Shown here: piece after piece, positions 3,001-33,478 of the stretch | How the letters are laid out: each line of letters opens with the position of its first letter | Position numbering within the stretch: the first letter of the stretch is position 1 | Origin: an uncultured Candidatus Saccharibacteria bacterium | GTDB lineage: Bacteria > Patescibacteriota > Minisyncoccia > UBA6257 | DNA length: 64,000 bases | Reading direction: 5' to 3' | NCBI GenBank assembly: GCA_964479005.1 | Contig: CAYZJA010000001.1 | Span: 64,001 to 128,000, forward strand | Program-made: the position numbers and the translations under genes | Notes under the pieces: generated by a model | Seen by the model: the letters and a program-made list of their open reading frames with translations, nothing else | Told to the model about the DNA's origin: nothing | The model's database searches: none

Positions 3001-3030
3001 AACCAAAAGGTTAAAAATTAATTAAAAAAT
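3001..3030 (+). promoter_or_regulatory. copy of the conserved upstream motif (aaccaaaaggttaaaaattaattaaaaaat)
   Basis: Ends directly at the ATG of the gene at 3031. Confidence 0.5.
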
Positions 3031-3906
3031 ATGAAAAGAATATTTTATATTATAGGTGGGATAATTGTTTTAATTATCATTATTATCACAAGTAGTGGAG
3101 GTAAAAGGAGTGGAATAAAATCAGAAGAACTCACCGCTGGAGTCATTGTTGGGGATAAATTATTGGTTGAAGAAGAAAAAACTTATTTAGTGACAAAAGT
3201 AATAGATGGAGATACTATTACTATAGAAGGTGGTGAGGTAATTCGTTATATTGGGATTGATACTCCTGAAACTGTTCATCCTTCAAAACCAGTGGAATGT
3301 TTTGGAAAAGAAGCTTCTAGTAAAAATAAAGAGTTAGTTGATGGGAAGAGGGTAAAATTAGGAAAAGATGTTTCGGAAACAGATAGATATGGACGTCTTC
3401 TTCGTTATGTTTGGGTTGGCGATATTTTTGTAAATGATTATCTTGTAAGGCAAGGTTATGCTTATGCTTATACATATCCTCCTGATGTAAAATATTCTGA
3501 ACAATTTGTTCAAGCCCAACAAGAGGCAAGAGAAAATAATAGGGGGCTATGGGAAGGTTGTCCAGTTACATCTACAGAATATCCTACTACAACCATAATA
3601 ACTCAAGTTGTACCACCAACTACGACAACTACAATAGTAGCCCCCACTACTACAACAACCACAATAGTAGCTCCTACCACTACAACAATCACAACATTGC
3701 CACCTACGACTACTACTGTACCTCCCACTACTACCATTACTTATTTTACCGAGGAAATAATTTGTTCTTATAATGCTTATAATTGTTCTAATTTTTCTAC
3801 TCATGCCGAAGCTCAAGAAGCCTATGAATTCTGCGGTGGAGTTAGTAATGATATCCATCGACTTGATAGAGATAAAGATGGACTAGCATGCGAAAGTTTA
3901 CCTTAG
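3031..3906 (+). CDS. membrane-anchored thermonuclease (SNase family) with a Thr/Pro-rich linker and C-terminal excalibur Ca-binding domain
   Basis: N-terminal TM helix. SNase core DGDTI...GIDTPE...RYGRLL...GLWE. TTTT(I)VAP repeats. C-terminal DRDKDGLACE excalibur motif. Confidence 0.8.
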   Translation: MKRIFYIIGGIIVLIIIIITSSGGKRSGIKSEELTAGVIVGDKLLVEEEKTYLVTKVIDGDTITIEGGEVIRYIGIDTPETVHPSKPVECFGKEASSKNKELVDGKRVKLGKDVSETDRYGRLLRYVWVGDIFVNDYLVRQGYAYAYTYPPDVKYSEQFVQAQQEARENNRGLWEGCPVTSTEYPTTTIITQVVPPTTTTTIVAPTTTTTTIVAPTTTTITTLPPTTTTVPPTTTITYFTEEIICSYNAYNCSNFSTHAEAQEAYEFCGGVSNDIHRLDRDKDGLACESLP

Positions 3907-3939
3907 AAGAATTTATGACTTATTCAAATTTAATTTTGT

Positions 3940-3970
3940 AAAACGTCAAAAATTAATTAAAAAATAAAAT
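3940..3970 (+). promoter_or_regulatory. copy of the conserved upstream motif (aaaacgtcaaaaattaattaaaaaataaaat)
   Basis: 1 nt upstream of the ATG at 3972. Confidence 0.5.
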
Positions 3971-3971
3971 T

Positions 3972-5807
3972 ATGGTGAAGGAAAAAGGGAAAAAGAAAGA
4001 ATATCCTAGTGAAACAGCTGTTCAGCTGATTCCTCATTTAAGCGAAGGCACATATACCACTTTTGCAAAAGCAGCAAAGGAATTGGTTATTAATGCATTC
4101 GATGCTAACGCATCGGAGATTCGTATAGATTTTGATAAAGATTTTTCAAGCCTTATATTACTTGATGACGGAGATGGGATGTCATCGAAGAAGTTCAAAA
4201 CAGAATTTCTCCGTATAGCGGGGTCAAAAAGACGGCTAGAATCTCAAAAGAGAAAATACAATAGACCGATGGTGGGAAGATTTGGAATAGGCTTTCTTTC
4301 TGTAGCGAGATTGTGTAAAACCGTTAAAGTTTATTCAAAAGAAAAAGGGAATAATTTTGGCATTGCTAGAGAAATACCCTTGGAGCATCTTTTTGATAAA
4401 GGTAATCAATTAAAGAATTTAAAGGAACAATATTATTTTTATTCTTTACCCGACTTTAGAGATGATAAAAAGAAAAGCTATACGAAAATAATCCTCAGCG
4501 GGCTCCGTCAGGATATTCAGGAAGACCTAAAGTCCGCAAAGAAATTCAAGAAAGTTTGGGGTAGGGTGGATGATCTTTGCGGAATTGAGAAATTTAAGTG
4601 GGAATTAGGCATACTCTCACCTGTGAAATATTTTAATAATTTTCCAGTGCACAGACTATCTAATAGTCAAATTGAACGAGCTAAACAAGAATTAGATAAA
4701 TTTAGTTTTAGAGTTTTTGTTAATAAAAATGAAATATTGAAACCAATTTGTTTAGGATACCATTATTTTACTAACGCTAAATGGGAATATCTTACTAAGG
4801 CTGTACCGAGAAATCATTGTGGTATTATCCCAATCATGTCTCCTCCGGGAGAAAAATTTAAATTTTATGGTTATATTTATAATCAAACTAAACAAATTCA
4901 GCCCTCTTCGCTTAGAGGTATTCTTTTGTGCATTAATCACATTGGCATAAAAGGCTACAGTAAGTCATTATTTGAATTTCCTAAAAACATAGGACCTATT
5001 CTTTCAGCAATTAGTGGAGAGATTTTTCTTGACCCTGCTTTCGAAGAAATACTGACTATTGATAAAGATGATTTTAAGGAAGACCATCCATTATTTAAGA
5101 ATTTAGCAGGTTATATTCATAATGCCATAGATGAAGTTGCTGCTAACTCTCGAAAAAGATCCAGTAGGATTAAAGCAAAAAAGAAGGAAGTTGCAAGAAT
5201 AAAAGACTTAGATCTTTCTTCGGAGGAAGTAAAACAAGCACAGAAGATTTTAGGCAAAAAAGAATTCAAACAAGAATATTTCCCGAATCCCGATATTTCA
5301 ATAAGAACAAATATCAAAAATTTAAAGACTCGAGTAAGAAATTTGGTCGGGAAGACCATAGACCAAGACGAGGCAAGCTATTTAATAGAATCTCTCGAAT
5401 GTTTTGAGGCGGATTGTTTCAGGGGGTCTATATTAATGGCATGGAATACAGGGATGTTTCGTATTCACCGAAAGATAGCAAAAAATATAGGGTTTGCTAA
5501 ATTTCAGAGCGAAATTATAAAGATGAGAACTTCATTACAAACACCACAAGCTCAAAAAAGCAGGCTGAAAAATTGTAATTGCTTAGATGATTTGAAGTAC
5601 TATAATGAAGAAATGATTTGTAGACTTTTGAAAAAAATTCAGTTAATGGACAGCATCACGGCGAAATTATTTTATGAAGTACTAATCAAGATAAGGCATT
5701 ATTGCGCACATCCTACTGGGCACAGAGCAACTGATGGAGAGGCTATTTTTATGATTCAGTCTGTCTTAGATAGAATTTTGAATAGTAATAGGTTTATTAT
5801 TAAATGA
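3972..5807 (+). CDS. GHKL-type ATPase (HATPase_c/MORC-like Bergerat fold) with a C-terminal HEPN-like domain
   Basis: N-box ELVINAFDA, DDGDGM (G1) and GRFGIGF (G2). The C-terminus carries IRHYCAHP, which matches the HEPN R[NH]xxxH motif. The stop overlaps the next start (ATGA). Confidence 0.55.
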   Translation: MVKEKGKKKEYPSETAVQLIPHLSEGTYTTFAKAAKELVINAFDANASEIRIDFDKDFSSLILLDDGDGMSSKKFKTEFLRIAGSKRRLESQKRKYNRPMVGRFGIGFLSVARLCKTVKVYSKEKGNNFGIAREIPLEHLFDKGNQLKNLKEQYYFYSLPDFRDDKKKSYTKIILSGLRQDIQEDLKSAKKFKKVWGRVDDLCGIEKFKWELGILSPVKYFNNFPVHRLSNSQIERAKQELDKFSFRVFVNKNEILKPICLGYHYFTNAKWEYLTKAVPRNHCGIIPIMSPPGEKFKFYGYIYNQTKQIQPSSLRGILLCINHIGIKGYSKSLFEFPKNIGPILSAISGEIFLDPAFEEILTIDKDDFKEDHPLFKNLAGYIHNAIDEVAANSRKRSSRIKAKKKEVARIKDLDLSSEEVKQAQKILGKKEFKQEYFPNPDISIRTNIKNLKTRVRNLVGKTIDQDEASYLIESLECFEADCFRGSILMAWNTGMFRIHRKIAKNIGFAKFQSEIIKMRTSLQTPQAQKSRLKNCNCLDDLKYYNEEMICRLLKKIQLMDSITAKLFYEVLIKIRHYCAHPTGHRATDGEAIFMIQSVLDRILNSNRFIIK

Positions 5808-6940
5808 CAAAAATCCTATTAGTAGAACCAAATTTTCCTATACCACCTAAAAGTAAAAATCATAGGGATTTTTTACCTATTGGATTATTAAAACTAGCAA
5901 ACTATCACAGAGGAAAGGGGGATAAAATTAAACTTGTTAGGGGAAATTATTATTTCCCCGATTTTTATCCCAGTCAGGTAAAAATAACTTCGCTTTTTAC
6001 ATATTGGTCTAATTATGTGTGGGAAAGTGTAAAATTCTACAAAGAAAACTATCCGAAAGCCAAAGTGATAGTTGGCGGCATTTATGCATCGTTAATGCCG
6101 GAGCATTGCAAAAAATCAGGTTGCGACGAAGTATTCATTGGAGTGGATAAGAACGCTGAAAAGTATGAACCAGCCTATGATTTGGTAAATGTAGATTACC
6201 AGATAATGCATACAAGCAGAGGTTGTATTAGAAGATGCAAGTTTTGCGGCACATGGAAGATAGAGCCGGAATTCAAATATAAAAAAAGCATAAAAGACGA
6301 GATTTGTAGCAATCGAATAATCTTTTATGATAATAATCTCTTAGCCAATCCTTATATAAAAAATATTTTTGAAGAGCTAAAGAATTCTAAATATAATGGC
6401 AGGGTTGTATATTCTGAAAGTCAATGTGGCATTGATGGTAGATTGCTTACGCCAAAACTAGCGAAATTGCTAAAACAAGCGAGATTTCTGAATCCGAGAA
6501 TTGCATGGGATCATAGTTATGGTCAGCGAAAAATGATAAAAAAACAAATTGATATGTTGGTAGATGTCGGTTATCCCGTTAAAGACATCTATATTTTCAT
6601 GATCTATAATTTTGAACAAGATTATTATGAAATGCTGAATAAACTTAGGCAATGCAAAAAATGGGGTGTCCAGATTGCGGATTGTAGATATCGACCCTTG
6701 GATCAAACTTTTGATAATTATAATCCTCGAATAAGCCAGACAAATAAAGATTATTATATTCATTCTAAATGGAGTGATAGGCAAATTAAACTTTTCAGAA
6801 AGAAAGTCAGACAACAGAATATTATGATAAGACATGGGTTTGATTTTTACAGTAAAGAGTTGGAAAGATTGGGGACGAAGAAAAGAAATAAAAAAAATAG
6901 TGTCAAATCTATCCTAAATAACCAAAAGGTCAAAAATTAA
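5804..6940 (+). CDS. radical SAM enzyme with an N-terminal B12-binding-like domain
   Basis: CIRRCKFC (CxxxCxxC) follows a Rossmann-like N-terminal domain (KILLVEP...LPIGLLKLANY). Start overlaps the upstream stop by 4 nt. Confidence 0.6.
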   Translation: MTKILLVEPNFPIPPKSKNHRDFLPIGLLKLANYHRGKGDKIKLVRGNYYFPDFYPSQVKITSLFTYWSNYVWESVKFYKENYPKAKVIVGGIYASLMPEHCKKSGCDEVFIGVDKNAEKYEPAYDLVNVDYQIMHTSRGCIRRCKFCGTWKIEPEFKYKKSIKDEICSNRIIFYDNNLLANPYIKNIFEELKNSKYNGRVVYSESQCGIDGRLLTPKLAKLLKQARFLNPRIAWDHSYGQRKMIKKQIDMLVDVGYPVKDIYIFMIYNFEQDYYEMLNKLRQCKKWGVQIADCRYRPLDQTFDNYNPRISQTNKDYYIHSKWSDRQIKLFRKKVRQQNIMIRHGFDFYSKELERLGTKKRNKKNSVKSILNNQKVKN

Positions 6941-6954
6941 TTGAAAAATAAAAA
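6921..6954 (+). promoter_or_regulatory. copy of the conserved upstream motif (aaccaaaaggtcaaaaattaattgaaaaataaaa)
   Basis: Overlaps the last codons of the radical SAM gene and lies 25 nt upstream of the ATG at 6980. Confidence 0.5.
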
Positions 6955-6979
6955 TTAGGAATAGAAGGCGGAAATTATT

Positions 6980-8296
6980 ATGGGAAAAGAAGAAACAAAA
7001 AAAGAAGAAATGAAACCATGTCCTTTATGTGGGACAATGCTTTTATATGATAAATGGTTACAAGTAGTAGGTGTATATGAAGAACAGCAGAAATATAAAA
7101 AACAATTGGAATTAGAATTAAGCAAAGCCAAAAAGCAAGAATTAAAGCTAAAAGAAGAATATAAAAAAATTCGTCAGAAAGAAAAAGAAATACGGACTCA
7201 GTACGCTCTTAAAAAATCAAAACTTAGCCAGCAGCATAAAACGCAATTAGAAAAACTCCAAAAAAGATTTGAAAAAGAAAAACGAAAAGTGCTGAATCAG
7301 GCTAAAAAGGAAGGCATTAAAATCGGTTTTGAGAAAGAACAAGCAAGATTAAAAAAGCTCAAACAACAACAAAAGAAGATCAAAAAGCAATTAGAAAGAC
7401 AAAAACAAATAGAATTAAAACGAATTTATCGTAAAGGAATTGGAATGGGGGAAGAAAAACAGAAAGCAAGAACAGAAAAAGTAAGTCTGATGGCTGAGAG
7501 ACGTCGTAAAGAAAGGGACAAAGCAATGGAGAAAGTAAAACAACTTGAGGAAATGATGAAACAAGGTACAACACCACAGATAGAAGGGTTTAATTTTGAG
7601 AAAGAGTTTGCTAAGCAACTCAAGCAAAAATTTCCAGAGGATGACATAAAGCCAACTGGACATAAGGGGGATATTATCCATACAGTTCAAGCAAAAGAGG
7701 AGAAAATTGGAAAAATTATCTATGAGTGCAAAAAAACTAAAGAATTCGAAAACAAATTTATTGAACAAATTCGACGAGATAAAACTAGAGTAATTGCAGA
7801 TTATGGAGTAATTGTTACTTGGACCACAAAAGAGAGTAAGCAGAATTTTTGGTTGGCGGGAGATATAATTATAGTTCATCCCTATGGGGCCTTAGATATA
7901 GCAACACTTCTCCGCGAAACACTGATACAAATGTATACACTTAAGTTATCAAGGGCAGAGTTTGAGACCAAGGGTAAAGCTATTCTTAAATTTATGCAAT
8001 CTGAGGAATTTAGAACAAGAATTCAAAATTCTATTGTTAAAAGCAGAGAAGCTTATGAATCTTTAAAGAAGGAGATTACAACGCATTTTAATACTTGGGA
8101 TAAGAGAGCCAAGATATACGAAAGTATCTATAAAAACACAAATATTATTCAGCGTACCGTTCAATACGTATTACTTTATAGTAAGATTCCTGAAAATTTA
8201 CCCGAAACAAAAGGACTTCCGCCACTCCAAATATTACCCAAAAAAGAATCAAAAGAGCAAGAAAAAGAGCAAAATGAACAAAACAGACAAAAATAA
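6980..8296 (+). CDS. coiled-coil protein with an N-terminal CxxC zinc ribbon and a C-terminal PD-(D/E)xK-like nuclease-fold domain (DUF2130-like architecture)
   Basis: CPLCGT near the N-terminus. About 180 aa of K/E-rich coiled coil. The C-terminus has GDIIH...IIYECKKT, a D...ExK pattern. Confidence 0.4.
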   Translation: MGKEETKKEEMKPCPLCGTMLLYDKWLQVVGVYEEQQKYKKQLELELSKAKKQELKLKEEYKKIRQKEKEIRTQYALKKSKLSQQHKTQLEKLQKRFEKEKRKVLNQAKKEGIKIGFEKEQARLKKLKQQQKKIKKQLERQKQIELKRIYRKGIGMGEEKQKARTEKVSLMAERRRKERDKAMEKVKQLEEMMKQGTTPQIEGFNFEKEFAKQLKQKFPEDDIKPTGHKGDIIHTVQAKEEKIGKIIYECKKTKEFENKFIEQIRRDKTRVIADYGVIVTWTTKESKQNFWLAGDIIIVHPYGALDIATLLRETLIQMYTLKLSRAEFETKGKAILKFMQSEEFRTRIQNSIVKSREAYESLKKEITTHFNTWDKRAKIYESIYKNTNIIQRTVQYVLLYSKIPENLPETKGLPPLQILPKKESKEQEKEQNEQNRQK

Positions 8297-8353
8297 CCAT
8301 TTTTTAGTATAAATTATCTATTTTAAATTTGTGGATTATATAATATTTGTGCC

Positions 8354-9310: not shown

Positions 9311-9323
9311 AAACTGAACTTAG

Positions 9324-9356
9324 CAAAAGGTCAAAAATGAATTGAGAAATAATTTA
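9324..9356 (+). promoter_or_regulatory. degenerate copy of the conserved upstream motif (caaaaggtcaaaaatgaattgagaaataattta)
   Basis: 11 nt upstream of the ATG at 9368. Confidence 0.45.
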
Positions 9357-9367
9357 ATTATAAAAAT

Positions 9368-9958
9368 ATGCCAAGAAGAAAAACATTGCTTGATGAAATA
9401 TTTTATATATTAGAGAGAATTAGTGTTGTATATGTAATAGCATTATTTTTTATTTGGTTTTCTGACAAAGAATTATTTTTTAAATTATTAGGATGGGGAC
9501 TCGCAATATTAGGTATTTTAATCGCAATTGTAATATTTACGAAAAGATCGAAGATTCATAAACGAAGTCAATTTGATACTGATAGGGAGTTACAGAAATG
9601 GCTAGGTGATTTGAAGCATTGGGAATTTGAAAATTACATTGGAGATTTATTTAATAAATTAGGATATAAAACTCGGGTTATTGGTGGATCATATGATGAA
9701 GGAATTGACGTTATTGCTGAGAAAAACGGAATAAAACATTATATCCAATGCAAAAAATATAGTAATAGTGTTGGGGTGAAGGATGTGAGAGAATTTTATG
9801 GAGCTTTATCTGATAAATTATCTAATGATAAAGCCTTTTTTATCACCACTAATTTTTTTACTGAAGGAGCTGAAAGATTTGTCGAAGACAAACCAATTGA
9901 ATTAGTTGATGGTAATCAACTCGTTAAATACATTCGCCTTGCCGAAAAATCTAACTAA
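9368..9958 (+). CDS. membrane-anchored Mrr-cat type restriction endonuclease domain protein
   Basis: Two N-terminal TM helices. Mrr-cat core FENYIGDLF...DEGIDVIAE...IQCKKY...FFITT. Confidence 0.7.
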   Translation: MPRRKTLLDEIFYILERISVVYVIALFFIWFSDKELFFKLLGWGLAILGILIAIVIFTKRSKIHKRSQFDTDRELQKWLGDLKHWEFENYIGDLFNKLGYKTRVIGGSYDEGIDVIAEKNGIKHYIQCKKYSNSVGVKDVREFYGALSDKLSNDKAFFITTNFFTEGAERFVEDKPIELVDGNQLVKYIRLAEKSN

Positions 9959-9994
9959 AACGTCAAAAATTAATTGAAAAATGAAAAATAAAAT
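9957..9994 (+). promoter_or_regulatory. copy of the conserved upstream motif (aaaacgtcaaaaattaattgaaaaatgaaaaataaaat)
   Basis: Upstream of the gene at 10016. Confidence 0.5.
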
Positions 9995-10015
9995 TTAGTC
10001 CGAAGTTGGATAATT

Positions 10016-10588
10016 ATGTTTAAAAATCTTTTGCTAAAAAACAAATCATTAAAAATTTTAATACTCATTAATGCCGTTTTTTTACTTGGAGCCAGTATGT
10101 TTCCTCCAATTTTTGCTTTGTTTGTAGAAGAAATAGGGGGAAATGCCTTTACTGCAGGAAGTATTTGGGCAACCTTTGCTATTGGGACAGGATTTTTAAT
10201 GCTGATTATCAGTCGTTATGGTGACAAACTGAAAGAGAGAGAATATTTAGTAGCAGCAGGCTATATTTTTAGATGTTTGGCTTGGTTAGGTTACTTTTTT
10301 GTTAATGCGCTTTGGCAGTTATATTTCTTGCAATTAATATTGGCTTTGGGTGAATCTTTTGGAACTCCCGCGTTTCTGGGTATATATTCTGAGCATTTAG
10401 ACAAAGGAAGACATATAAGACAGTGGGGAGTTTATACTTCTTTTACTATAATTATCGGAGGAGTTGCCGCCTTTCTGGGAGGGGCAATAGTTTCTCAATT
10501 CGGATTTAGGGTTCTTTTTCTTGTAATGACCTCTTTATCTGCTTTAGCTTTTTTTCTTTTGATTATTCAGCCTCGAAAACTGCTCTAA
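10016..10588 (+). CDS. truncated MFS-transporter-like membrane protein (about 6 TM; possible gene fragment)
   Basis: 190 aa of TM helices resembling one half of an MFS transporter. Confidence 0.35.
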   Translation: MFKNLLLKNKSLKILILINAVFLLGASMFPPIFALFVEEIGGNAFTAGSIWATFAIGTGFLMLIISRYGDKLKEREYLVAAGYIFRCLAWLGYFFVNALWQLYFLQLILALGESFGTPAFLGIYSEHLDKGRHIRQWGVYTSFTIIIGGVAAFLGGAIVSQFGFRVLFLVMTSLSALAFFLLIIQPRKLL

Positions 10589-10660
10589 GGAAAAAGTCTG
10601 TCTTTTTTGGGCCATTCTTTCCTGGGCCATCAAATTTAGTTCGAAGTTGAGAAAATTTAA

Positions 10661-10692
10661 CCAAAAGGTCAAAAATTAATTGAAAATAAAAA
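10661..10692 (+). promoter_or_regulatory. copy of the conserved upstream motif (ccaaaaggtcaaaaattaattgaaaataaaaa)
   Basis: Immediately upstream of the ATG at 10693. Confidence 0.5.
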
Positions 10693-11019
10693 ATGATTAA
10701 AAAACATAATAAGTTAATTCGGGATAGAATTTTGGAAATTATTGAGGCAAATAAAGAGAAGTCTTATTTTCGGATTCTAAATAAAAAAGAATATATTAAA
10801 GAGATAAAGAAGAAAATATTAGAAGAAGCTAAAGAATTAATTGAAGCCAAAAGCAAAAAGGAAGTTATTAATGAAATTGTTGATATTCAAGAATTAATTG
10901 ATGTTTTGATATCTGAAAGTGGTTTAACAAAATTACAGATTCAAAAACAGCAAGAAGTAAAAAATAAAAAGCGAGGCGGATTTAAAAAGCGACTATTTTT
11001 AATAAAGACAAAAAATTAA
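10693..11019 (+). CDS. MazG/HisE-like all-alpha nucleotide pyrophosphohydrolase
   Basis: KLIRDRILEII...KILEEAKELIEA...DIQELIDVLI...KRGGFKKRLFL matches the PRA-PH/MazG-like small-protein pattern. Confidence 0.5.
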   Translation: MIKKHNKLIRDRILEIIEANKEKSYFRILNKKEYIKEIKKKILEEAKELIEAKSKKEVINEIVDIQELIDVLISESGLTKLQIQKQQEVKNKKRGGFKKRLFLIKTKN

Positions 11020-11089
11020 TCCTTCGACACGGTTCAGGACAAGTTGAGAAAAATAACTCAAAATTGAGAGGATTAAGAATTTTAGAAAT

Positions 11090-11875
11090 TTGATGAAAAT
11101 TAAGTTTATTAAAATCAAAGCAAAGCAAATTTTTACTAAAACTGGCATTCCAGGGGCAAAATGGGTCTTAAATCAGTATGTAGGATGTGAACATGCTTGT
11201 CCATATTGTTATGCTAAGTTTATGGGCAGATGGCGGCCGAAAAACTATGGAAAATGGGGAAACTGGGTTGAAGTAAAAGAAAATGCTTCTGAATTAGTAA
11301 AAGGCAAGTATGTAGATTCTTGGGTATATATGAGTTCTGTTTCTGATCCATACCAACCCATTGAAAAAAAATTAAAAATAACTCGTAAAGTTTTAGAAAA
11401 TTTAGATAAAAGAATTAAATTAGCTATTCTTACTAAGTCAGATTTAGTGTTACGAGATATAGATTTATTTAAGAAGTTTAAGAATATTGAGGTTGGGTTA
11501 ACTATAAATAGTTTTGATAGTTCTCTGAAGAAGGTTTTTGAGCCGTTTTCATCAAAAAACGAGGATAGAATAAAGGCTTTGAAAGTCCTTAAAGAGAATG
11601 GAATAAGAACTTATACTTTTATTAGCCCGATAATTCCTGGACTAATAAATTTAAAAGATGTAATTAGAAAAACTAAAAATTTGACTGATTATTATTGGTT
11701 CGAAATGATTAATATGAAACTAGCTGGTAGAGAATTTATCAAGATTTTGAGAAAAGAATCTCCCGAAAGTTTAGAAGTCGTTACTAATAAAAGGAAGTTT
11801 GAAAAGTTTGTAAAAGAATGTAAAAATATTATTAATTCAGAAGATATAAAGGTTAGAGGGATAGAGATTCACTAA
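11090..11875 (+). CDS. radical SAM protein, spore-photoproduct-lyase-like (COG1533 DNA repair photolyase family)
   Basis: GCEHACPYCYA is the CxxxCxxC motif in the SPL-like context. Confidence 0.5.
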   Translation: MMKIKFIKIKAKQIFTKTGIPGAKWVLNQYVGCEHACPYCYAKFMGRWRPKNYGKWGNWVEVKENASELVKGKYVDSWVYMSSVSDPYQPIEKKLKITRKVLENLDKRIKLAILTKSDLVLRDIDLFKKFKNIEVGLTINSFDSSLKKVFEPFSSKNEDRIKALKVLKENGIRTYTFISPIIPGLINLKDVIRKTKNLTDYYWFEMINMKLAGREFIKILRKESPESLEVVTNKRKFEKFVKECKNIINSEDIKVRGIEIH

Positions 11876-11905
11876 AGGGTCAAAAATTAATTGAAAAATA
11901 AAAAT
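11874..11905 (+). promoter_or_regulatory. copy of the conserved upstream motif (aaagggtcaaaaattaattgaaaaataaaaat)
   Basis: Ends at the ATG at 11906. Confidence 0.5.
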
Positions 11906-12358
11906 ATGGCAATAAAATGGAACAAGATCGATTTTGATTTAGTTAAACGTCTTAGAGGATTGGCTGAATTATCTTGTAATAATGGAGATTATATAGGGGC
12001 CTTTGTTCTTCAGATGCTATTTTTGGAGGGTACGTTAGTGTTCATAGTTAAGAATTTATTAAATCAAAAAAGGGTAGACAAGGAATTATCTAATAAATTT
12101 TCTCAAGGATACCCAACATTCGCTTCTCTTATGGATTATTTTTTTCTGTTGACAACGAATCACGATATATTTAATAAGTTAAGAGATGTAAATAAACGTA
12201 GAAATAAAATAATTCATAATATTTTTGAATTTGAAACTTTTGATGCTCTCCAGCAAGAATCGCGAGAACTGTATTTAGAATCGCGGAAACTAGAAGTTGA
12301 TTTAATAGGTCAATACCTTAGTAAGTTTTTGAAAAATAAAAAATTAATTGAAAAATAA
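11906..12358 (+). CDS. small helical HEPN-like protein
   Basis: KRRNKIIHN matches the RNxxxH HEPN motif. Start moved to the ATG at 11906; the ORF track used an upstream TTG. A paralogue lies at 63781. Confidence 0.4.
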   Translation: MAIKWNKIDFDLVKRLRGLAELSCNNGDYIGAFVLQMLFLEGTLVFIVKNLLNQKRVDKELSNKFSQGYPTFASLMDYFFLLTTNHDIFNKLRDVNKRRNKIIHNIFEFETFDALQQESRELYLESRKLEVDLIGQYLSKFLKNKKLIEK

Positions 12359-12362
12359 GATT
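12331..12362 (+). promoter_or_regulatory. copy of the conserved upstream motif embedded in the 3' end of the preceding CDS (gaaaaataaaaaattaattgaaaaataagatt)
   Basis: Ends at the ATG at 12363. Confidence 0.4.
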
Positions 12363-12967: not shown

Positions 12968-12998
12968 ACAAAAGGTCAAAAATTAATTAATAAAAAAA
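12968..12998 (+). promoter_or_regulatory. copy of the conserved upstream motif (acaaaaggtcaaaaattaattaataaaaaaat)
   Basis: 1 nt upstream of the ATG at 13000. Confidence 0.5.
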
Positions 12999-12999
12999 T

Positions 13000-14259: not shown

Positions 14260-14340
14260 AGGAGAACTGTTCTCCTTTATTTTGTTAAGCAGAAATTAAT
14301 CCTTCGGCAAACTCAGGACAAATTAAAAAATAGAAAATAA

Positions 14341-14877: not shown

Positions 14878-14913
14878 CGTAAAAGGTCAAAAAAATAATT
14901 AAAAATAAGATTT
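14878..14913 (+). promoter_or_regulatory. copy of the conserved upstream motif (cgtaaaaggtcaaaaaaataattaaaaataagattt)
   Basis: Ends at the ATG at 14914. Confidence 0.5.
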
Positions 14914-15546: not shown

Positions 15547-15580
15547 CTTCAAAAGATCAAAAATTAATTAAGAAAAATTT
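15547..15580 (+). promoter_or_regulatory. copy of the conserved upstream motif (cttcaaaagatcaaaaattaattaagaaaaattt)
   Basis: Ends at the ATG at 15581. Confidence 0.45.
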
Positions 15581-16457: not shown

Positions 16458-16492
16458 TTCGTAAAAGGTCAAAAATTAATTGGGAATAAAAA
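16458..16492 (+). promoter_or_regulatory. copy of the conserved upstream motif (ttcgtaaaaggtcaaaaattaattgggaataaaaa)
   Basis: Ends at the ATG at 16493. Confidence 0.5.
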
Positions 16493-17490: not shown

Positions 17491-17520
17491 CAAAAGGTCG
17501 AAAATTAATCGAAAATGAAA
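17491..17520 (+). promoter_or_regulatory. copy of the conserved upstream motif (caaaaggtcgaaaattaatcgaaaatgaaa)
   Basis: About 55 nt upstream of the ATG at 17575. A 15-codon mini-ORF lies in between. Confidence 0.4.
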
Positions 17521-17574
17521 TCTGTTTGGAGGTTGGGCCTCGCATTATTCTTTTTAAAATGATAATCTTAATAT

Positions 17575-18186
17575 ATGAGATTAGTTTTAAAAAATAAATA
17601 CTTCTTACTAAGGCACGGAAAAACTATTCATCAAGCAGAGAAGGAGGATATTGTTTATTACCATCCTGATGATAATCCTGCTTGTGCTTTATTAGAGAAA
17701 GGAATAAAGGAAGCTCAGCTAGCTGGGGAAGCACTAAAAGAAAAAAACATCGATTTAATATTTTCATCAGATATTTTAAGAACAAAACAGACAGTTAAAA
17801 TTGTTGCTGAATTAATTAACTATGATCTAGAGAAAGTAGTTTATGATGTAAGGTTAAGAGATGTTAATTGGGGAATATTTGGAGGAAAGAGTGAAGAAGA
17901 AGCTTGGTCATACTATAACAATGATATGATGAACAAGTTTGAATCAAGTGTTCCTCAAGGAGAGAGCTGGAATCAGTGCAGAGAAAGGATGGTTGAAGTT
18001 TTAAAGGAAATTGAAAATAATTTTGCAAATAAGAATATTTTAATAGTTTCTCATGGAGATCCTTTATGGCTTTTAGAAGGATATATTAAAGGAAAAAGTA
18101 ATGAAGAATTGGTTTTTGGAAAGAATAGAAAAAAAGATATTAAAACCGGGGAAATAAGAGAAATTAATAATCAAACCAAAAAGTAA
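17575..18186 (+). CDS. histidine phosphatase family protein (phosphoglycerate-mutase-like)
   Basis: LLRHGKT RHG motif and downstream IVSHGD. Confidence 0.6.
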   Translation: MRLVLKNKYFLLRHGKTIHQAEKEDIVYYHPDDNPACALLEKGIKEAQLAGEALKEKNIDLIFSSDILRTKQTVKIVAELINYDLEKVVYDVRLRDVNWGIFGGKSEEEAWSYYNNDMMNKFESSVPQGESWNQCRERMVEVLKEIENNFANKNILIVSHGDPLWLLEGYIKGKSNEELVFGKNRKKDIKTGEIREINNQTKK

Positions 18187-18208
18187 GAATTAATTGGGAA
18201 ATAAAAAT
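18187..18208 (+). promoter_or_regulatory. partial copy of the conserved upstream motif (gaattaattgggaaataaaaat)
   Basis: Ends at the ATG at 18209. Confidence 0.4.
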
Positions 18209-18544: not shown

Positions 18545-18574
18545 AAAACGTCAAAAATTAATTGAAAATTAAAA
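18544..18574 (+). promoter_or_regulatory. copy of the conserved upstream motif (aaaaaacgtcaaaaattaattgaaaattaaa)
   Basis: Followed only by a 10-codon mini-ORF and the perfect palindrome CCCAAGGATAAGCTTATCCTTGGG (18577-18600). That palindrome is the terminator of the minus-strand gene 18619-18855. Confidence 0.35.
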
Positions 18575-19298: not shown

Positions 19299-19335
19299 TT
19301 CGTAAAAGGTAAAAATTAATGGAATATAAAATAAT
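19299..19335 (+). promoter_or_regulatory. degenerate copy of the conserved upstream motif (ttcgtaaaaggtaaaaattaatggaatataaaataat)
   Basis: About 90 nt upstream of the gene at 19423. Confidence 0.35.
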
Positions 19336-19422
19336 AGTTAGACTTTCTAATGTATTAGATTTTTGAAAAATCTGGTATAATTGAAAAGGTCGTTAACATT
19401 AATAAATAATTCTTAATAAATT

Positions 19423-20138: not shown

Positions 20139-20174
20139 TAAAAGGTCGGAAATTAATTAAAGAAATTAAATACT
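20139..20174 (+). promoter_or_regulatory. copy of the conserved upstream motif (ttaaaaggtcggaaattaattaaagaaattaaatac)
   Basis: Ends at the ATG at 20175. Confidence 0.4.
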
Positions 20175-24837: not shown

Positions 24838-24866
24838 AGCAAAAGGTCGGAAATAACAATTAAAAT
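24838..24866 (+). promoter_or_regulatory. degenerate copy of the conserved upstream motif (gcaaaaggtcggaaataacaattaaaat)
   Basis: Ends at the ATG of rarA (24867). Confidence 0.35.
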
Positions 24867-31000: not shown

Positions 31001-31888
31001 ATGGAAAATTTGGTAATAGGAGATGAGTTAGCTAAAAAATTAGCCAGGCAACTGAACTTAGATTTCATTTTAATAGAAGACAGGGTTTTTCCTGATGGTG
31101 AAGTACAGCCCCGTTTAGAAAAAGAGAAAAAAGCTAATAAAGCTATTTTAATTTTTCAGAAAAAACAAAACGAAGACATTAATACTTATTTAATTAAGTA
31201 TTTTTTATTATTAAGAAAGCTAAAAGATCTTGCGCAAGAAATAATATGTATCATGCCTTATTTTCCTTATGCTCGCCAAGATTCTATTTTCCAAGAAGGT
31301 GAATCTCTTTCCTCTTTGTACATTTCTGAATTAATAGAAAAAAATGCAGATGTTTTTATTACATGTAATATGCATGAACATAGAAAAAAAATTGGAGATT
31401 TATTTAAAATTTCAAGCCACAACGTCTTTCTTTTTCAGGATTTGGCAGAAGAATTTGAAGATTTTTCCCCTTCTAATTCAGTGGTTATAGGCCCAGATAA
31501 AGAGTCTGAAGCATTTGTTAATGATTTCTGTAAAAGATTTTCCGCGCAAAAAGTGATTTTTCAGAAAACAAGAGATATTAAGACAGGAAAGATAGATTTT
31601 TCTTATGATAAAAATTGTGACTTCACAAATAAAGATGTTATTATCGTAGACGATATTGTTTCAACTGGCAGAACTATTTTACAAGCGGCCGAGATAGCGA
31701 AAGAACTTAAAGCCAAAACAATTAGCTTTGCCTTTATTCATTCCATATTTGGGGACAAAGCAATAGAACAATTGAGTAAAATAAATCCTAAGAAGATTGT
31801 ATTTACAAATACTTTAGAAAACTCTTGTTTTTCAGTTGATATTACCAAGCCGATAGCAAAATATATTTTAGAAAATAAATTAGTTTAA
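31001..31888 (+). CDS. prs: ribose-phosphate pyrophosphokinase-like protein
   Basis: PYFPYARQD and DDIVSTGRT PRPP-binding loop. Confidence 0.6.
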   Translation: MENLVIGDELAKKLARQLNLDFILIEDRVFPDGEVQPRLEKEKKANKAILIFQKKQNEDINTYLIKYFLLLRKLKDLAQEIICIMPYFPYARQDSIFQEGESLSSLYISELIEKNADVFITCNMHEHRKKIGDLFKISSHNVFLFQDLAEEFEDFSPSNSVVIGPDKESEAFVNDFCKRFSAQKVIFQKTRDIKTGKIDFSYDKNCDFTNKDVIIVDDIVSTGRTILQAAEIAKELKAKTISFAFIHSIFGDKAIEQLSKINPKKIVFTNTLENSCFSVDITKPIAKYILENKLV

Positions 31889-31893
31889 AAAAG

Positions 31894-33429
31894 ATGAAAA
31901 AGAAAAACAATTCTAAAAATTCAAAAACAAACGGTATTTTTTTTCTCAAAGTTAAATATTTAGATATTAAAACAGGGCATCCTTGGATTGTTATTATTAA
32001 TGAAAAAGATGGTCGGCGTTTTGGCATTAGGCCAGGCGATGAATTAGTTGTTAAATGGGAAGAAAAGCAAACAGAAATCGCAGTAGATACTACAGAATCT
32101 TTGGTAAAAAAGGGAGAAATTGGAGTTTTTCGAGATATAACAAACAGGTACAAAATTAAACAAGGGGAATTTTTGGAATTAAAACTCGCAGGCCATGCGC
32201 CTTCTCTTAAAATTATTCACAAAAAGCTAAATAGAAAGAAATTGTCTTATAAGGAAATGCATTCCTTGGTTTCAGATATAGCTAAGCATAGAATTAATGA
32301 TTTAGAATTATCTTTTTTTATTGCTTCTGCTTTTGATGAAAAAAACTTTTCAAAAGAGGAGATTTATTATTTAACCAAAGCTATTAGTGAAACAGGGGAA
32401 ATGATGAAATTTGGAAAAGTTGCGGCTGATAAACATTCTATCGGAGGAATTCCAGGTAATCGCGTAAGCCCCATAATAGTTGCCATTGTGGCAAGTCATG
32501 GAATTACAATCCCAAAGACTTCTTCCAGAGCAATAACTTCCGCAGCAGGGACGGCAGATACAATGGAAGTGTTGGCGCCAGTGAGTTTTTCTTTAGATAA
32601 AATAAAAAAGATTGTTAAAAAAACGAATGCTTGTTTAATTTGGGGAGGGGCTTTAAAATTAGCTCCTGCTGATGATAGGTTTATTAAAATTACTCGTCGA
32701 TTAGGATTAGAACCTTATTCTAAAATGGTTGCTAGTATTATGTCTAAACAAGTAGCCACTGGAATTAATCATTTGGTTATAGATATGCCGATTGGCCCCA
32801 CCGCAAAAATTTCAAGTGTAAAAGATATTCAGTTTGTTAAAAATTTATTCTTGTATTTAGCAAAAAGATTTAATATTAAAATTAAAATTGTTTCTCAAAA
32901 AACGATGGGCCCTATAGGAAAAGGTGTTGGTCCTTGTTTGGAAGCAAGAGATGTATTGAGAGTTTTGCAACAAAAAGAAAACAGGCCAAAAGATTTAGAG
33001 AAAAAGGCCATATTATTATCAGGATATTTATTAGAATTAGTTGGGAAAGCAAAAAAAAGAAATGGGAAAAAATTAGCCGAGGAGAGTTTGCGATCAAAGA
33101 ATGCTTTTAAAAAAATGCAAGAGATTATAAAAGAACAGGGAGGGAATTCAAATATTGATTCTGAAGAGCTTCCTTTGGGTAAAGTCACTTATGAATTGAA
33201 ATCTTCTCAAAATGGTTTAGTTAAGTCTATTCATAATAAAAATCTGAACAAGATTTGTGGATTATTAGGTACGCCTTTGACTCAAGAGGCAGGGATTTAT
33301 TTAAATAAATCTATTGGAGAAAAAGTAAAAAAGAAAGATACTCTTTGTATTTTTTATACTGATAGCGAACAAAGGTTAATTTTAGCTAAGCACGCTTTGC
33401 AAAAATTGGAATTGTATAACATATCATAA
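31894..33429 (+). CDS. AMP phosphorylase / thymidine-phosphorylase-family enzyme (archaeal/CPR type with an N-terminal extra domain)
   Basis: GGIPGNRVSPIIVAIVASHG...TSSRAITSAAGTADTMEVL glycosyl-transferase family 3 core, with about 100 extra N-terminal residues. Confidence 0.6.
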   Translation: MKKKNNSKNSKTNGIFFLKVKYLDIKTGHPWIVIINEKDGRRFGIRPGDELVVKWEEKQTEIAVDTTESLVKKGEIGVFRDITNRYKIKQGEFLELKLAGHAPSLKIIHKKLNRKKLSYKEMHSLVSDIAKHRINDLELSFFIASAFDEKNFSKEEIYYLTKAISETGEMMKFGKVAADKHSIGGIPGNRVSPIIVAIVASHGITIPKTSSRAITSAAGTADTMEVLAPVSFSLDKIKKIVKKTNACLIWGGALKLAPADDRFIKITRRLGLEPYSKMVASIMSKQVATGINHLVIDMPIGPTAKISSVKDIQFVKNLFLYLAKRFNIKIKIVSQKTMGPIGKGVGPCLEARDVLRVLQQKENRPKDLEKKAILLSGYLLELVGKAKKRNGKKLAEESLRSKNAFKKMQEIIKEQGGNSNIDSEELPLGKVTYELKSSQNGLVKSIHNKNLNKICGLLGTPLTQEAGIYLNKSIGEKVKKKDTLCIFYTDSEQRLILAKHALQKLELYNIS

Positions 33430-33448
33430 GGTAGTATAATAATATATA

Positions 33449-33478
33449 GAAGGTCGATAATTTTAAAAAAATAAAAAT
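33449..33478 (+). promoter_or_regulatory. degenerate copy of the conserved upstream motif (gaaggtcgataattttaaaaaaataaaaat)
   Basis: Ends at the ATG at 33479. Confidence 0.3.

What the first reader, a model, noticed from the sequence alone, without database searches (positions are those of the whole stretch)
3001..33478. Conserved ~30-nt motif immediately upstream of 19 start codons
Copies of (TTCGT)AAAAGGTCAAAAATTAATTGAAAAATAAAA(AT) occur at 3001, 3940, 6921, 9324, 9957, 10661, 11874, 12331, 12968, 14878, 15547, 16458, 17491, 18187, 18544, 19299, 20139, 24838 and 33449. They are always on the + strand and usually end 0-12 nt before an ATG, and these genes have no Shine-Dalgarno. Two copies lie inside the 3' end of the preceding CDS. 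The motif is concentrated on the accessory genes and is absent from the ribosomal and glycolytic genes. It may be a strong promoter for leaderless or near-leaderless mRNAs, an operator for one regulator of the island, or the boundary element of mobile gene cassettes. Cassettes would explain the one-gene-one-motif layout. Companion motifs (TTTAGTYCGAAGTTGRGAAAATT at 9995 and 10636; TTAATCCTTCGRCA...TTCAGGACAARTT at 11019 and 14296) flank some copies, which suggests modular duplication.
Basis: seen in the sequence. Interest (0 to 1): 0.7.

Follow-up and report, generated by a model that had tools for sequence, protein, structure and literature searches.

The report
Junction repeat of shuffled gene cassettes
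A 30-base repeat sits at every gene boundary in a 20-kb block of accessory genes in an uncultured ultra-small (CPR) bacterium, and comparison with related genomes shows genes are swapped, duplicated and lost exactly at this repeat, giving an integron-like cassette array with no integron machinery in sight.

Summary
About 16 clear copies and 4-5 degenerate copies of (AACC)AAAAGGTCAAAAATTAATTGAAAAATAAAA lie at window 3005-20169. All are on the + strand. None lies among the ribosomal genes at 35-64 kb, and chance expects 0. The same repeat forms co-oriented arrays in about 35 contigs from related CPR genomes, whose records are labelled Saccharibacteria.

Gene order differs almost completely between arrays, but orientation is kept. 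Positions 4-7 of the repeat travel with the upstream gene and positions 19 onward travel with the downstream gene. Every exchange therefore maps to the invariant 11-base core AAAAATTAATT.

Upstream ORFs often end on stop codons built into the repeat, in all three frames. The ATG peaks 32 nt after the repeat start.

The repeat has no hairpin and no real dyad symmetry, and no integrase lies nearby, so this is not an integron. It also fits a sigma-70 promoter for leaderless mRNA poorly.

Best reading: a two-part cassette-junction element that probably also carries expression signals, similar to the PeSL motifs of T4-type phages. Whether exchange uses short homology or an unknown site-specific enzyme is open.

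The parts
3005..3034 (+). junction motif copy (4 mismatches); ATG of the SNase/Excalibur gene at 3031 lies inside the 30-nt frame
3940..3969 (+). junction motif copy (2 mismatches) before the HATPase_c_3 gene (ATG 3972)
6924..6953 (+). perfect motif copy. The upstream radical-SAM-like CDS (5804-6940) ends on the motif's TAA at positions 14-16. The DUF2130 gene starts 56 nt after the motif start.
9325..9354 (+). motif copy (4 mismatches) before the Mrr-like nuclease gene (ATG 9368)
9957..9986 (+). motif copy (2 mismatches) that overlaps the stop of the Mrr gene. It is followed by companion repeat 9991-10015 and a truncated MFS gene.
9991..10015 (+). companion repeat AAATTTAGTCCGAAGTTGGATAATT. 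It resembles the right end of the insertion variant (..AAG) plus a 3' arm (TTGRRWAAT). It forms a direct repeat with 10632-10657 around the MFS fragment.
10632..10657 (+). second copy of the companion repeat, immediately upstream of motif 10663
10663..10692 (+). motif copy (2 mismatches) before the PRA-PH/MazG-like gene. The motif-plus-gene block 10663-11019 recurs at 91% identity in other arrays with different neighbours.
11007..11056 (+). insertion variant of the motif: ..AAAAAATTAAT[CCTTCGACACGGTTCAGGACAAG]TTGAGAAAAAT. It overlaps the stop of CDS 10693-11019.
11874..11903 (+). motif copy (1 mismatch) that overlaps the stop of the radical SAM gene; ATG at 11906
12331..12360 (+). degenerate copy (5 mismatches) inside the 3' end of CDS 11906-12358, which ends on the motif's TAA at positions 25-27. 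The ClpP-like gene starts at 12363.
12970..12999 (+). motif copy before the serpin gene. The serpin-specific 3' arm TTAATAAAAAA(A)T travels with the gene in at least 3 of the 5 other arrays that carry it (L061, L081, L095).
14289..14340 (+). insertion variant: ..GAAATTAAT[CCTTCGGCAAACTCAGGACAAA]TTAAAAAAT.., before gene 14341
14881..14910 (+). motif copy (6 mismatches) before the Ser-hydrolase gene. This cassette is absent between the same neighbours in L062 and L095.
15551..15580 (+). motif copy (7 mismatches) before the class IV aminotransferase gene
16463..16492 (+). motif copy (4 mismatches) before the M23 peptidase gene
17492..17521 (+). motif copy (5 mismatches), followed by a GC hairpin (17529-17541). 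The His-phosphatase gene starts 83 nt after the motif start.
18174..18208 (+). degenerate copy AACCAAAAAGTAAGAATTAATTGGGAAATAAAAAT that contains the stop of CDS 17575-18186; MazG gene ATG at 18209
18545..18574 (+). motif copy (2 mismatches) with no + strand gene after it. It abuts hairpin 18576-18601, the terminator of the - strand gene 18619-18855. It marks the left edge of block 18553-19740, which sits elsewhere in L007, and parts of it in L031.
19304..19332 (+). degenerate copy with an indel at the right edge of the - strand genes; no ATG follows
19384..19412 (+). degenerate copy lying 5 nt downstream of a TGGTATAAT extended -10 (19373-19381). Here the motif would be the 5' UTR of the ATP-cone gene (ATG 19423).
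20140..20169 (+). last array copy (7 mismatches) before a small membrane ORF
24841..24866 (+). weak, doubtful copy before the MgsA gene, outside the array
33449..33478 (+). weak copy starting about 10 nt downstream of a TATAAT (within 33430-33455). It is probably a 5' UTR.

Best explanation
The motif is the junction element of a chromosomal gene-cassette array in a CPR (Patescibacteria) bacterium.

**Structure.** The element has three parts.
- The 5' arm, (YYAACC)AAAAGGTC, belongs to the 3' end of the upstream cassette.
- The 3' arm, TTGRRAAATAAAAWT followed by ATG, belongs to the downstream gene.
- The invariant core between them, AAAAATTAATT, is where DNA exchange takes place.

**What exchange does.** Exchange between junction copies deletes, duplicates, reorders and imports single genes while keeping their orientation.

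**What the element also supplies.**
- The junction closes all three reading frames, with TAA at positions 14-16, TGA at 18-20 and TAA at 25-27. Any ORF joined to it therefore terminates.
- It places the next ATG about 13 nt after a purine- and A-rich stretch, which I infer to be the translation-initiation region of an organism that hardly uses Shine-Dalgarno sequences.

**Mechanism I commit to.** The element works like the PeSL motifs of T4-type phages. A conserved expression signal doubles as a portable patch of homology, and exchange occurs by short-homology recombination, possibly fed by natural transformation (a ComEC gene lies about 8 kb upstream of the array start).

**Shown:** the copies, their polarity, their restriction to the array, the shuffling, and the breakpoints in the core.
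**Inferred:** the expression role and the enzyme responsible.
For: - **Motif enrichment and polarity:**
- **Family of arrays.** About 35 co-oriented multi-copy arrays occur in related contigs. Across 206 unique instances, conservation runs only from -2 to +30.
- **Shuffling.**
  - Homologous blocks lie in a different order in L007, L095, L081, L031 and others.
  - Recurrent cassette families have mostly distinct neighbours. Family 0 has 10 distinct right neighbours out of 14. The serpin has 6 distinct left neighbours out of 6.
  - Orientation is kept: 311 ORFs on + against 11 on -.
- **Breakpoints, pairwise statistics.**
  - In 31 pairs that share the downstream gene but not the upstream context, identity at motif positions 4, 5 and 7 is at background (0.35, 0.35, 0.52 against 0.43, 0.42, 0.49). 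At positions 19, 21 and 28 it is high (0.84, 0.81, 0.97 against 0.53, 0.45, 0.53).
  - In 45 pairs that share the upstream context, the pattern is the reverse.
- **Recent events.**
  - L050 and L088 are 99.3-99.5% identical but have their blocks in reversed order. The junctions switch exactly at AAAAATTAATT.
  - A 99.2% intra-array duplication in L007 is bounded by motifs on both sides.
- **Built-in stops.** The motif's own stop codons end 27 of 143 upstream ORFs.
- **ATG spacing.** The ATG lies 26-35 nt from the motif start in 89 of 143 instances, with the mode at 32.
- **Motif without a gene.** The copy at 18545 has no + strand gene after it, and its cassette carries - strand genes. This favours a junction role over a pure promoter role.
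- **Terminators.** Some cassettes end in a GC hairpin just before the motif: 11 of 143 against 0 in the control. About 19% have a folding z-score below -2. This is a PeSL-like terminator-plus-signal layout.
- **Imprecise junction.** L014 and L105 differ by a junction that lacks TTAATT, which suggests homology-driven rather than strictly site-specific exchange.
- **No recombinase found.** None appears in the window up to 35 kb (every ORF of at least 100 aa except 20590-20880, which was not scanned), among the called genes of the 9.5 kb upstream, or among the ORFs scanned at five other array edges. Two ORFs at those edges had no Pfam match.
Against: - No RNA data exist, so the expression role is inference.
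- Thirty bases of imperfect homology is marginal for RecA-type recombination. Even so, rearrangements separate sequences that are 99.5% identical.
- Both arms stay conserved among unrelated cassettes although exchange in the core never homogenises them. This would also fit protein-binding arms of a site-specific system.
- Insertions of 22-55 nt (CCTTCG...CAGGACAAG) always sit at the same point of the core. The model does not explain them.
- All arrays come from metagenome assemblies, so some junctions could be assembly chimeras. Several arrangements are, however, reproduced at 100% identity in separate assemblies.
Confidence: 0.55

Rival explanations
1. The motif is the recombination site of a dedicated cassette-capture system, a functional analogue of the integron. 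An unidentified recombinase, encoded elsewhere in the genome, binds the two conserved arms. It exchanges strands inside AAAAATTAATT, excising cassettes as circles and re-inserting them at other junctions.
For: - All mapped crossovers lie within one 11-nt core.
- Both arms are conserved across unrelated cassettes although they are never exchanged together.
- The arrays have strict polarity.
- Turnover is fast relative to point mutation.
- Insertion variants always sit at the same core position.
- Stop codons in all three frames and a reversed-gene cassette also occur in integron arrays.
- An imperfect palindrome TCAA-N7-TTGA spans the core (read directly from the sequence).
Against: - No integrase or other recombinase appears next to the array in the window, in the 9.5 kb upstream, or at five other array edges.
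- The consensus does not fold as a hairpin on either strand (z about 0). Only about 19% of junctions contain a stable hairpin, and those lie upstream of the motif.
- The arms are direct repeats (T[CG]AAAAAT twice), not inverted ones, unlike tyrosine- or serine-recombinase sites.
- One junction (L014 against L105) is imprecise.
Confidence: 0.25
2. The motif is first of all a strong promoter, for leaderless or near-leaderless mRNA or under one regulator, for accessory genes. It is repeated because each gene needs one. The shuffling is an incidental consequence.
For: - There is one motif per transcription unit.
- The ATG mode at +32 puts T25 at -7.
- Start codons at the canonical position after the motif in the window are all ATG.
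- The organism largely lacks Shine-Dalgarno sequences. Its canonical promoters sit 9-10 nt from the ATG at rpsL (34621) and at 8354, so short leaders seem usual.
- Some cassettes end in terminators, so the next gene needs its own start signal.
- Gene 8354, which lacks the motif, has its own TATAAT.
Against: - The fit to sigma-70 is poor. No -35 is present. The candidate -10 ARAAAT has G at -11 in about 45% of copies. The best hexamer, TAAAAT at positions 25-30, would start inside the ORF.
- The most conserved bases (positions 7-19) would be the spacer.
- The distance from motif to ATG ranges from 26 to 35 nt, with a tail to 186 nt.
- Copy 18545 drives nothing.
- In 4-5 cases a canonical extended -10 lies 4-8 nt upstream, which makes the motif a transcribed leader.
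- The sigma-70 pattern scan of the array is not enriched over shuffles (85 found against 90 expected).
Confidence: 0.15
3. The apparent shuffling is an artefact of metagenome assembly. Contigs are chimeric at a short repeat shared by co-existing strains, and the motif is only a conserved intergenic signal.
For: - All comparison loci are metagenome contigs or MAGs.
- Many contigs end inside arrays, which shows that assemblers struggle there.
Against: - A 30-nt imperfect repeat is shorter than reads and than the final k-mers.
- Identical arrangements across several junctions are recovered at 100% or 99.97% identity in separate assemblies. These are L003=L076, L007=L026, L002=L093, L012=L066, L038=L080=L121 and L001=L014. 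The window's own arrangement appears in two JGI samples.
- Arm-to-gene linkage is consistent over dozens of pairs.
Confidence: 0.05

Closest known systems
PeSL (promoter-early stem-loop) motifs of T4-type phages (Arbiol et al. 2010, PMC2839356; Comeau et al. 2014, PMC4122927)
   Same: - Short conserved intergenic motifs flank non-essential genes in variable regions.
- Indels, replacements and reordering between relatives have their ends in the motif.
- The layout combines a gene-end signal with a gene-start signal.
- No dedicated recombinase is needed.
   Different: - PeSLs are demonstrated sigma-70-like promoters plus stem-loop terminators in phage genomes.
- Here the host is a cellular CPR chromosome.
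- The motif does not match a sigma-70 promoter.
- Only about a fifth of junctions have a hairpin.
- Promoter activity is untested.
- Copies form one long, strictly co-oriented array.
Integron cassette arrays and CALINs (attC-flanked cassettes; Vibrio superintegron VCRs)
   Same: - The arrays are long, co-oriented and mostly promoter-less.
- Each unit holds a single gene of mixed accessory or defence function.
- One repeat lies at each junction, and the crossover point lies inside it, so each cassette carries parts of two repeats.
- ORFs sometimes end in the repeat.
- Occasional cassettes carry reversed genes.
- Gene order is scrambled between strains.
   Different: - No intI lies nearby.
- The repeat is 30 nt and conserved in sequence. 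It is not a 57-141-nt imperfect palindrome conserved in structure.
- There is no R''/L''-L'/R' hairpin.
- The space between stop codon and motif is often under 30 nt or negative.
pdif modules of Acinetobacter plasmids (XerC/D-dependent; from my own knowledge)
   Same: Discrete gene modules are bounded by short (28-bp) recombination sites and occur in different contexts.
   Different: pdif sites have two 11-bp inverted arms around a 6-bp spacer and alternate in orientation. This motif has no such dyad, and all copies point the same way.
Mimivirus early promoter AAAATTGA (from my own knowledge)
   Same: An A/T-rich, highly conserved motif lies upstream of a large fraction of genes in an AT-rich genome, and the sequences partly resemble each other (AATTGAAAA).
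   Different: The mimivirus motif is 8 nt, occurs genome-wide and lies at variable distance. It is not a recombination junction. The resemblance is probably due to base composition.

Membership tests
Integron (intI + attI + attC cassette array) | A tyrosine-recombinase gene intI lies adjacent to the array | tested here: not met
   Pfam finds no recombinase in the window up to 35 kb. This covers every ORF of at least 100 aa except 20590-20880, which was not scanned. None appears among the called genes in the 9.5 kb upstream or among the ORFs scanned at five other array edges.
Integron (intI + attI + attC cassette array) | attC: a 57-141-nt imperfect inverted repeat (R''-L''...L'-R') that folds as a single-stranded hairpin and is conserved in structure, not sequence | tested here: not met
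   - The consensus and the long variants fold no better than shuffles (z between +0.4 and -0.8).
- Over 143 junctions the median z is -0.4 to -0.7, and only about 19% are below -2.
- Conservation is in sequence and limited to 32 nt.
- The stop-to-motif gap is often too short for an attC.
Integron (intI + attI + attC cassette array) | Co-oriented single-gene cassettes whose order varies between strains, with the crossover inside the repeat | tested here: met
PeSL-type regulatory cassette | The motif contains a functional sigma-70-like promoter | tested here: inconclusive
   The sequence fit is poor. Activity cannot be tested with these tools.
PeSL-type regulatory cassette | A stem-loop terminator is joined to the promoter | tested here: not met
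   A GC hairpin precedes the motif in only 11 of 143 instances by the strict test, or about 19% by z < -2. It is not part of the conserved element.
PeSL-type regulatory cassette | Indels and replacements between relatives end in the motif, meaning recombination between copies | tested here: met
Sigma-70 promoter for leaderless mRNA | A TANNNT -10 element ends 6-8 nt before the start codon at fixed spacing | tested here: not met
   - The hexamer at positions 20-25 is ARAAAT, with first base A and second base G in about 45% of copies.
- The ATG offset spreads over 26-35 nt and beyond.
- TAAAAT at positions 25-30 lies too close to the ATG.
Xer/dif-type or other tyrosine/serine recombinase core site | Two inverted recombinase-binding arms flank a 6-8-bp overlap region | tested here: not met
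   Read directly from the consensus. The arms share only TCAA/TTGA. The inner repeats T[CG]AAAAAT are direct, not inverted.
Known RNA family (leader, riboswitch, sRNA) | A match to an Rfam covariance model | tested here: not met
   The window at gathering thresholds gives only RNase P and one tRNA. Four array loci searched at E <= 1 give nothing relevant.

The most novel reading that the evidence does not exclude
CPR bacteria carry a cassette-capture platform that evolved independently of integrons. Its attachment site would be a 30-bp, linear, non-hairpin site. The left arm ends one cassette, closing all three reading frames. The right arm is the ribosome-entry region of the next cassette. 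An as yet unknown recombinase, encoded away from the array, would act on the site. The CCTTCG...CAGGACAAG insertions at the crossover point would be footprints or partner-site remnants of that reaction.
Probability: 0.25. Interest if true: 0.85.

Novelty: new variant of a known kind. Interest (0 to 1): 0.66.

Why it matters
CPR/Patescibacteria have tiny genomes and depend on hosts, and how they gain and lose accessory and defence genes is poorly understood. This locus is a compact, highly dynamic platform. It holds about 25 single-gene cassettes: nucleases, restriction-like enzymes, proteases, a serpin, MazG-, HD- and NYN-domain proteins, and others. It is rearranged faster than point mutations accumulate, and it uses one short junction sequence. 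Two outcomes are possible.

- If exchange is homology-driven, the PeSL principle extends from phages to cellular chromosomes.
- If a dedicated enzyme is involved, this is a second, integron-independent way of capturing gene cassettes, with a short and simple site that could be useful as a tool.

The junction sequence is also a practical probe for fishing such arrays and their cargo out of metagenomes.

Tried and rejected
- **attC-like hairpin.** The YYAAC before the motif and the GTTGAR in its 3' half looked like R''/R'. Folding of the consensus, the long variants and 143 real junctions showed no consistent structure.
- **Integrase search.** Pfam scans covered nearly all ORFs of at least 100 aa in window 1-35 kb, ten recurrent cassette families and ten proteins at the array edges. 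The gene table for the 9.5 kb upstream was also checked. The result was R-M enzymes, a Schlafen-like helicase and housekeeping genes, and no recombinase.
- **Sigma-70 promoter.**
  - The pattern scan was not enriched: 85 found against 90 in shuffles.
  - -10-like hexamers are not enriched at a fixed place upstream of the motif.
  - Array genes with and without the motif do not differ in nearby -10-like hexamers.
- **Known RNA.** Rfam was negative.
- **Phage origin.** All 12 IMG/VR hits are chance matches inside coding sequence (..KGQKLIE..), as are about 85 of the 120 metagenome hits.
- **Other site types.** Dif/Xer-like, FNR-like, sigma-H-like, ECF-like and H-NS-like resemblances were checked by eye against consensus sequences recalled from memory. 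None fits well, and none was tested further.
- **Literature.** No paper contains the core sequence. No paper was found that describes such arrays in Patescibacteria.
- **Hydrolase cassette junction.** I tried to pin the junction of the hydrolase cassette (14881-15550) by comparing with L062 and L095. The sequences are too diverged (86-90% identity) to be informative.

Full report

Yes. The 30-mer AAAAGGTCAAAAATTAATTGAAAAATAAAA has 6 matches at <=3 mismatches, against 0.00 expected in 100 dinucleotide-preserving shuffles. At <=7 mismatches there are 16 matches, all on the + strand. One of them (7252, 7 mismatches) lies inside a CDS and is chance. The other 15 lie between 3005 and 20169. Nothing at <=8 mismatches lies on the - strand or in 35-64 kb, where the ribosomal-protein operons are.

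I add one more degenerate copy at 19384.

Most copies end a few bases before an ATG. Several overlap the stop codon of the preceding CDS.

**2. Setting**

The window has 31% G+C. Nearly all genes are on the + strand, and GC skew is positive throughout. It carries a bacterial class A RNase P RNA. The closest genome records are MAGs labelled uncultured Candidatus Saccharibacteria. The window's gene arrangement is found in two JGI samples.

Most genes in the window lack a Shine-Dalgarno sequence and have A/T-rich upstream regions. Canonical promoters (TTGACA-17-TAAACT at rpsL, TGgTATAAT elsewhere) often sit only 9-10 nt from the ATG.

The genes linked to the motif are a mixed accessory set:
- an SNase-type nuclease;
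- an HATPase_c_3 protein followed by a radical-SAM-like protein;
- DUF2130;
- an Mrr-type nuclease;
- a truncated MFS gene;
- two MazG/PRA-PH-like proteins;
- a radical SAM enzyme;
- a ClpP-like protease;
- a serpin;
- an alpha/beta hydrolase;
- a class IV aminotransferase;
- an M23 peptidase;
- a histidine phosphatase.

The array begins about 220 nt left of the window, after NrdDG, ComEC, a tRNA synthetase and a P-type ATPase. It ends near 20.2 kb.

**3. The same repeat in related genomes**

An exact-pattern scan of species-representative genomes found the motif in multi-copy, co-oriented form in two Saccharibacteria-labelled MAGs. It also found it on two contigs of a MAG labelled Methanosarcinales, which I take to be mis-binned.

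In the 484-kb contig CAZUBI010000001.1, all strict matches fall in one 16-kb stretch.

About 31 of them are true arrays with 2-11 co-oriented copies. A few more carry single genuine copies (L015, L028, L087, L117). The rest, and all 12 viral hits, are chance matches inside coding sequence.

From 206 unique instances, conservation is confined to positions -2 to +30 (CC AAAAGGTC AAAAATTAATTG AAAAATAAAA). It is highest at positions 7-19, and the flanks are not conserved.

**4. Cassettes move**

Blocks of the window recur at 80-92% identity in other arrays, in different orders and always in the same orientation.
- In L007 the order is 10663-11019, then 3-400, then 18553-19740, then 16463-16975.
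- The serpin block 12970-14261 occurs in five other arrays, each with different neighbours.
- The hydrolase cassette is absent between the same neighbours in L062 and L095.

Over all arrays, recurrent gene families have mostly distinct left and right neighbours, while 311 of 322 ORFs of at least 100 aa are on the motif strand.

Some events are very recent.
- L050 and L088 are 99.3-99.5% identical but carry two multi-gene blocks in opposite order.
- L007 holds a 99.2% identical duplicate of one cassette.

Identical arrangements recovered in separate assemblies argue against assembly chimeras.

**5. Where the exchanges happen**

I compared motif instances in pairs.
- In 31 pairs with a homologous downstream gene but unrelated upstream sequence, the variable motif positions 4-7 match only at background rates. 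Positions 19-29 match far above background.
- In 45 pairs with homologous upstream but unrelated downstream sequence, the reverse holds.

The alignments show rare 3'-arm variants staying with their gene, while the 5' arm changes (GGTC, CGTC, CATC, GTCG). Examples of such variants are TTGATAATTAAATT, TTAATAAAAAAT and TTGAGAAATAGAATTTAAG.

The recent L050/L088 event gives a clean three-way comparison in which the switch lies within AAAAATTAATT.

So a cassette runs from the 3' arm, through its ORF, to the 5' arm of the next junction. This is the same logic as an integron cassette. The pairs are not phylogenetically independent, and the breakpoint cannot be resolved inside the invariant core.

One junction (L014 against L105) lacks TTAATT and looks like an imprecise, microhomology-type event.

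**6. Other anatomy**

The motif carries stop codons in all three frames: TAA at positions 14-16, TGA at 18-20 and TAA at 25-27. Of 143 upstream ORFs, 13, 8 and 6 respectively end on them.

The first ATG that opens a long ORF lies 26-35 nt from the motif start in 89 of 143 cases, with the mode at 32. The remainder form a tail reaching 186 nt.

Positions 19-24 are purine-rich (GAGAA, GGGAA, GAGGA, GAAAA) and lie 8-13 nt before the ATG. This is where a weak Shine-Dalgarno sequence or an A-rich ribosome-loading region would sit (inference).

A minority of cassettes end in a GC-rich hairpin just before the motif: 11 of 143 against 0 in a coding control. About 19% have a folding z-score below -2.

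Copy 18545 is followed only by the terminator hairpin of a - strand gene. Its cassette (18575 to about 19300) carries reversed genes with their own promoter. The motif's orientation is therefore a property of the array, not of the gene it precedes.

**7. The companion motifs**

TTAATCCTTCGRCA...CAGGACAAGTT is not a separate element. In about 18 instances across the arrays it is an insertion of 22-55 nt at one fixed point of the core: AAAAGGTCAAAAATTAAT[CCTTCG..variable..CTCAGGACAAG]TTGAAAAATAAAA.

The other companion (9991-10015 and 10632-10657) resembles the right end of that insertion plus a 3' arm, and it brackets the truncated MFS gene.

Neither variant folds significantly, and neither matches Rfam. 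I cannot explain these insertions. Their fixed position at the crossover region is the strongest hint that the core is treated as a specific site.

**8. What it is not**

*Not an integron.* No intI was found in the window up to 35 kb, in the 9.5 kb upstream, or at five other array edges. Those edges carry R-M enzymes and a Schlafen-like helicase. The junction is a 30-nt sequence-conserved site without hairpin potential.

*Not a dif/Xer-type or other dyad-symmetric core site.* The arms share only TCAA/TTGA, and the inner repeats T[CG]AAAAAT are direct.

*Not convincingly a sigma-70 promoter for leaderless mRNA.*
- There is no -35.
- The hexamer ending at -7 in the modal class is ARAAAT, with G at -11 in nearly half of the copies.
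- The best hexamer, TAAAAT at positions 25-30, would start transcription inside the ORF.
- The most conserved bases would be the spacer.
- The spacing to the ATG varies.
- The pattern scan is not enriched over shuffles.
- In a few cases an extended -10 (TGGTATAAT or TGGTAGAAT) lies 4-8 nt upstream. The transcript would then begin at the first bases of the motif, making it a 30-nt leader. These cases are window 19373 and 33430, and loci L002 557 and L050 130.

**9. Best explanation and rivals**

I commit to a bipartite cassette-junction element that works like the PeSL motifs of T4-type phages. Those motifs are conserved expression signals whose copies provide the only shared homology between unrelated genes, and so they become the points of modular exchange (PMC2839356, PMC4122927).

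Here the 3' arm is probably the translation-initiation region of each cassette. The 5' arm plus core ends the previous cassette and may contribute to transcription. Exchange is by short-homology recombination, perhaps helped by DNA uptake. Confidence is 0.55.

The main rival (0.25) is a dedicated site-specific system with an unknown recombinase. It is favoured by four points:
- the narrow crossover window;
- the conservation of both arms;
- the fixed-point insertions;
- the high rearrangement rate.

It is disfavoured by three points:
- the missing enzyme;
- the lack of dyad symmetry or a hairpin;
- one imprecise junction.

A pure promoter or operator reading (0.15) and an assembly artefact (0.05) are less likely.

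**10. Novelty**

No paper in the searchable library contains the core sequence or describes such arrays in Patescibacteria. The principle is known from integrons and PeSLs: repeat-bounded cassettes with exchange at the repeat. The site, the host lineage and the apparent absence of integron machinery are new. I rate it a new variant of a known kind.

Noticed in passing
window 11007-11056, 14289-14340; L003 (reverse-oriented) ~2990-3045; L082 (reverse-oriented) ~1700-1790; L002 ~3830-3920: Insertions of 22-55 nt (CCTTCG..variable..CTCAGGACAAG) always sit at the same point inside the motif core (after TTAAT). Some occur in tandem. C-to-T changes in the flanking AATCCT/AGGA pairing would keep G-U pairs. 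Their origin and role are unknown.
   Followed up: partly
L066 (reverse-oriented) ~4700-4732 and ~6020-6050; L006 ~4200-4228; L001 (reverse-oriented) ~2085-2113: A second, more diverged junction type, GGTCAACAAAAAATTAGGGAAATAAATTT-ATG, precedes some array genes that lack the canonical motif. It looks like an indel variant of the same element that my mismatch-only searches missed.
   Followed up: no
window 53169-53191 and 53841-53863: Two adjacent non-array genes (ATG at 53192 and 53864) share an identical 23-nt upstream sequence, ATAATAAAATAAATAAAATT(ATG). This is a different small upstream repeat outside the array.
   Followed up: no
window-wide, e.g. 34576-34620 (rpsL) and 8297-8353: Most genes lack a Shine-Dalgarno sequence, although a few have a perfect one (AAGGAGGTGA before 51606). 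Canonical promoters end only 9-10 nt before the ATG, which suggests that very short leaders or leaderless mRNAs are common in this organism.
   Followed up: partly
L088 (reverse-oriented) 2796-2915; L050 2913-3032; compare window 19899-20105: One cassette holds only the first ~24 codons of a DUF6485 gene followed by a hairpin. Other junction pairs (L066 6875/6935, L105 9765/9825) enclose only a hairpin (ACGACGTCCGACGTCGT). These are remnant or empty cassettes.
   Followed up: partly
L001, L006 (CAYWLA01 contigs): Two contigs of a MAG labelled Methanosarcinales archaeon carry typical arrays at 28-29% G+C and are 99.9% identical to other array contigs. They are almost certainly mis-binned CPR sequence.
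   Followed up: partly
window 57164-57584 (-) and 63192-63264 (+): A bacterial class A RNase P RNA scores only just above the family threshold (110 against 100 bits) and lies on the minus strand. A tRNA-Gly(CCC) follows further on.
   Followed up: no
window 13000-14259: A full-length serpin (Pfam E = 4e-122) is one of the most widely shared cassettes in these arrays. It is an unusual cargo for a reduced-genome bacterium.
   Followed up: no
window 3972-6940: The HATPase_c_3 protein (weak matches to restriction-enzyme models) and the following B12-binding/radical-SAM-like protein overlap by 4 nt. They form the only two-gene cassette in the window's array and may be a defence pair.
   Followed up: no
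L034 945-4301; L105 (reverse-oriented) 1821-5367; L014 (reverse-oriented) 3-2670; L047 1092-2993: Where the 5' edge of an array is visible in other contigs, it abuts restriction-modification genes (Eco57I-like, type I HsdR plus YgjP-like) or a Schlafen-type helicase. The arrays therefore sit in defence-island neighbourhoods.
   Followed up: partly
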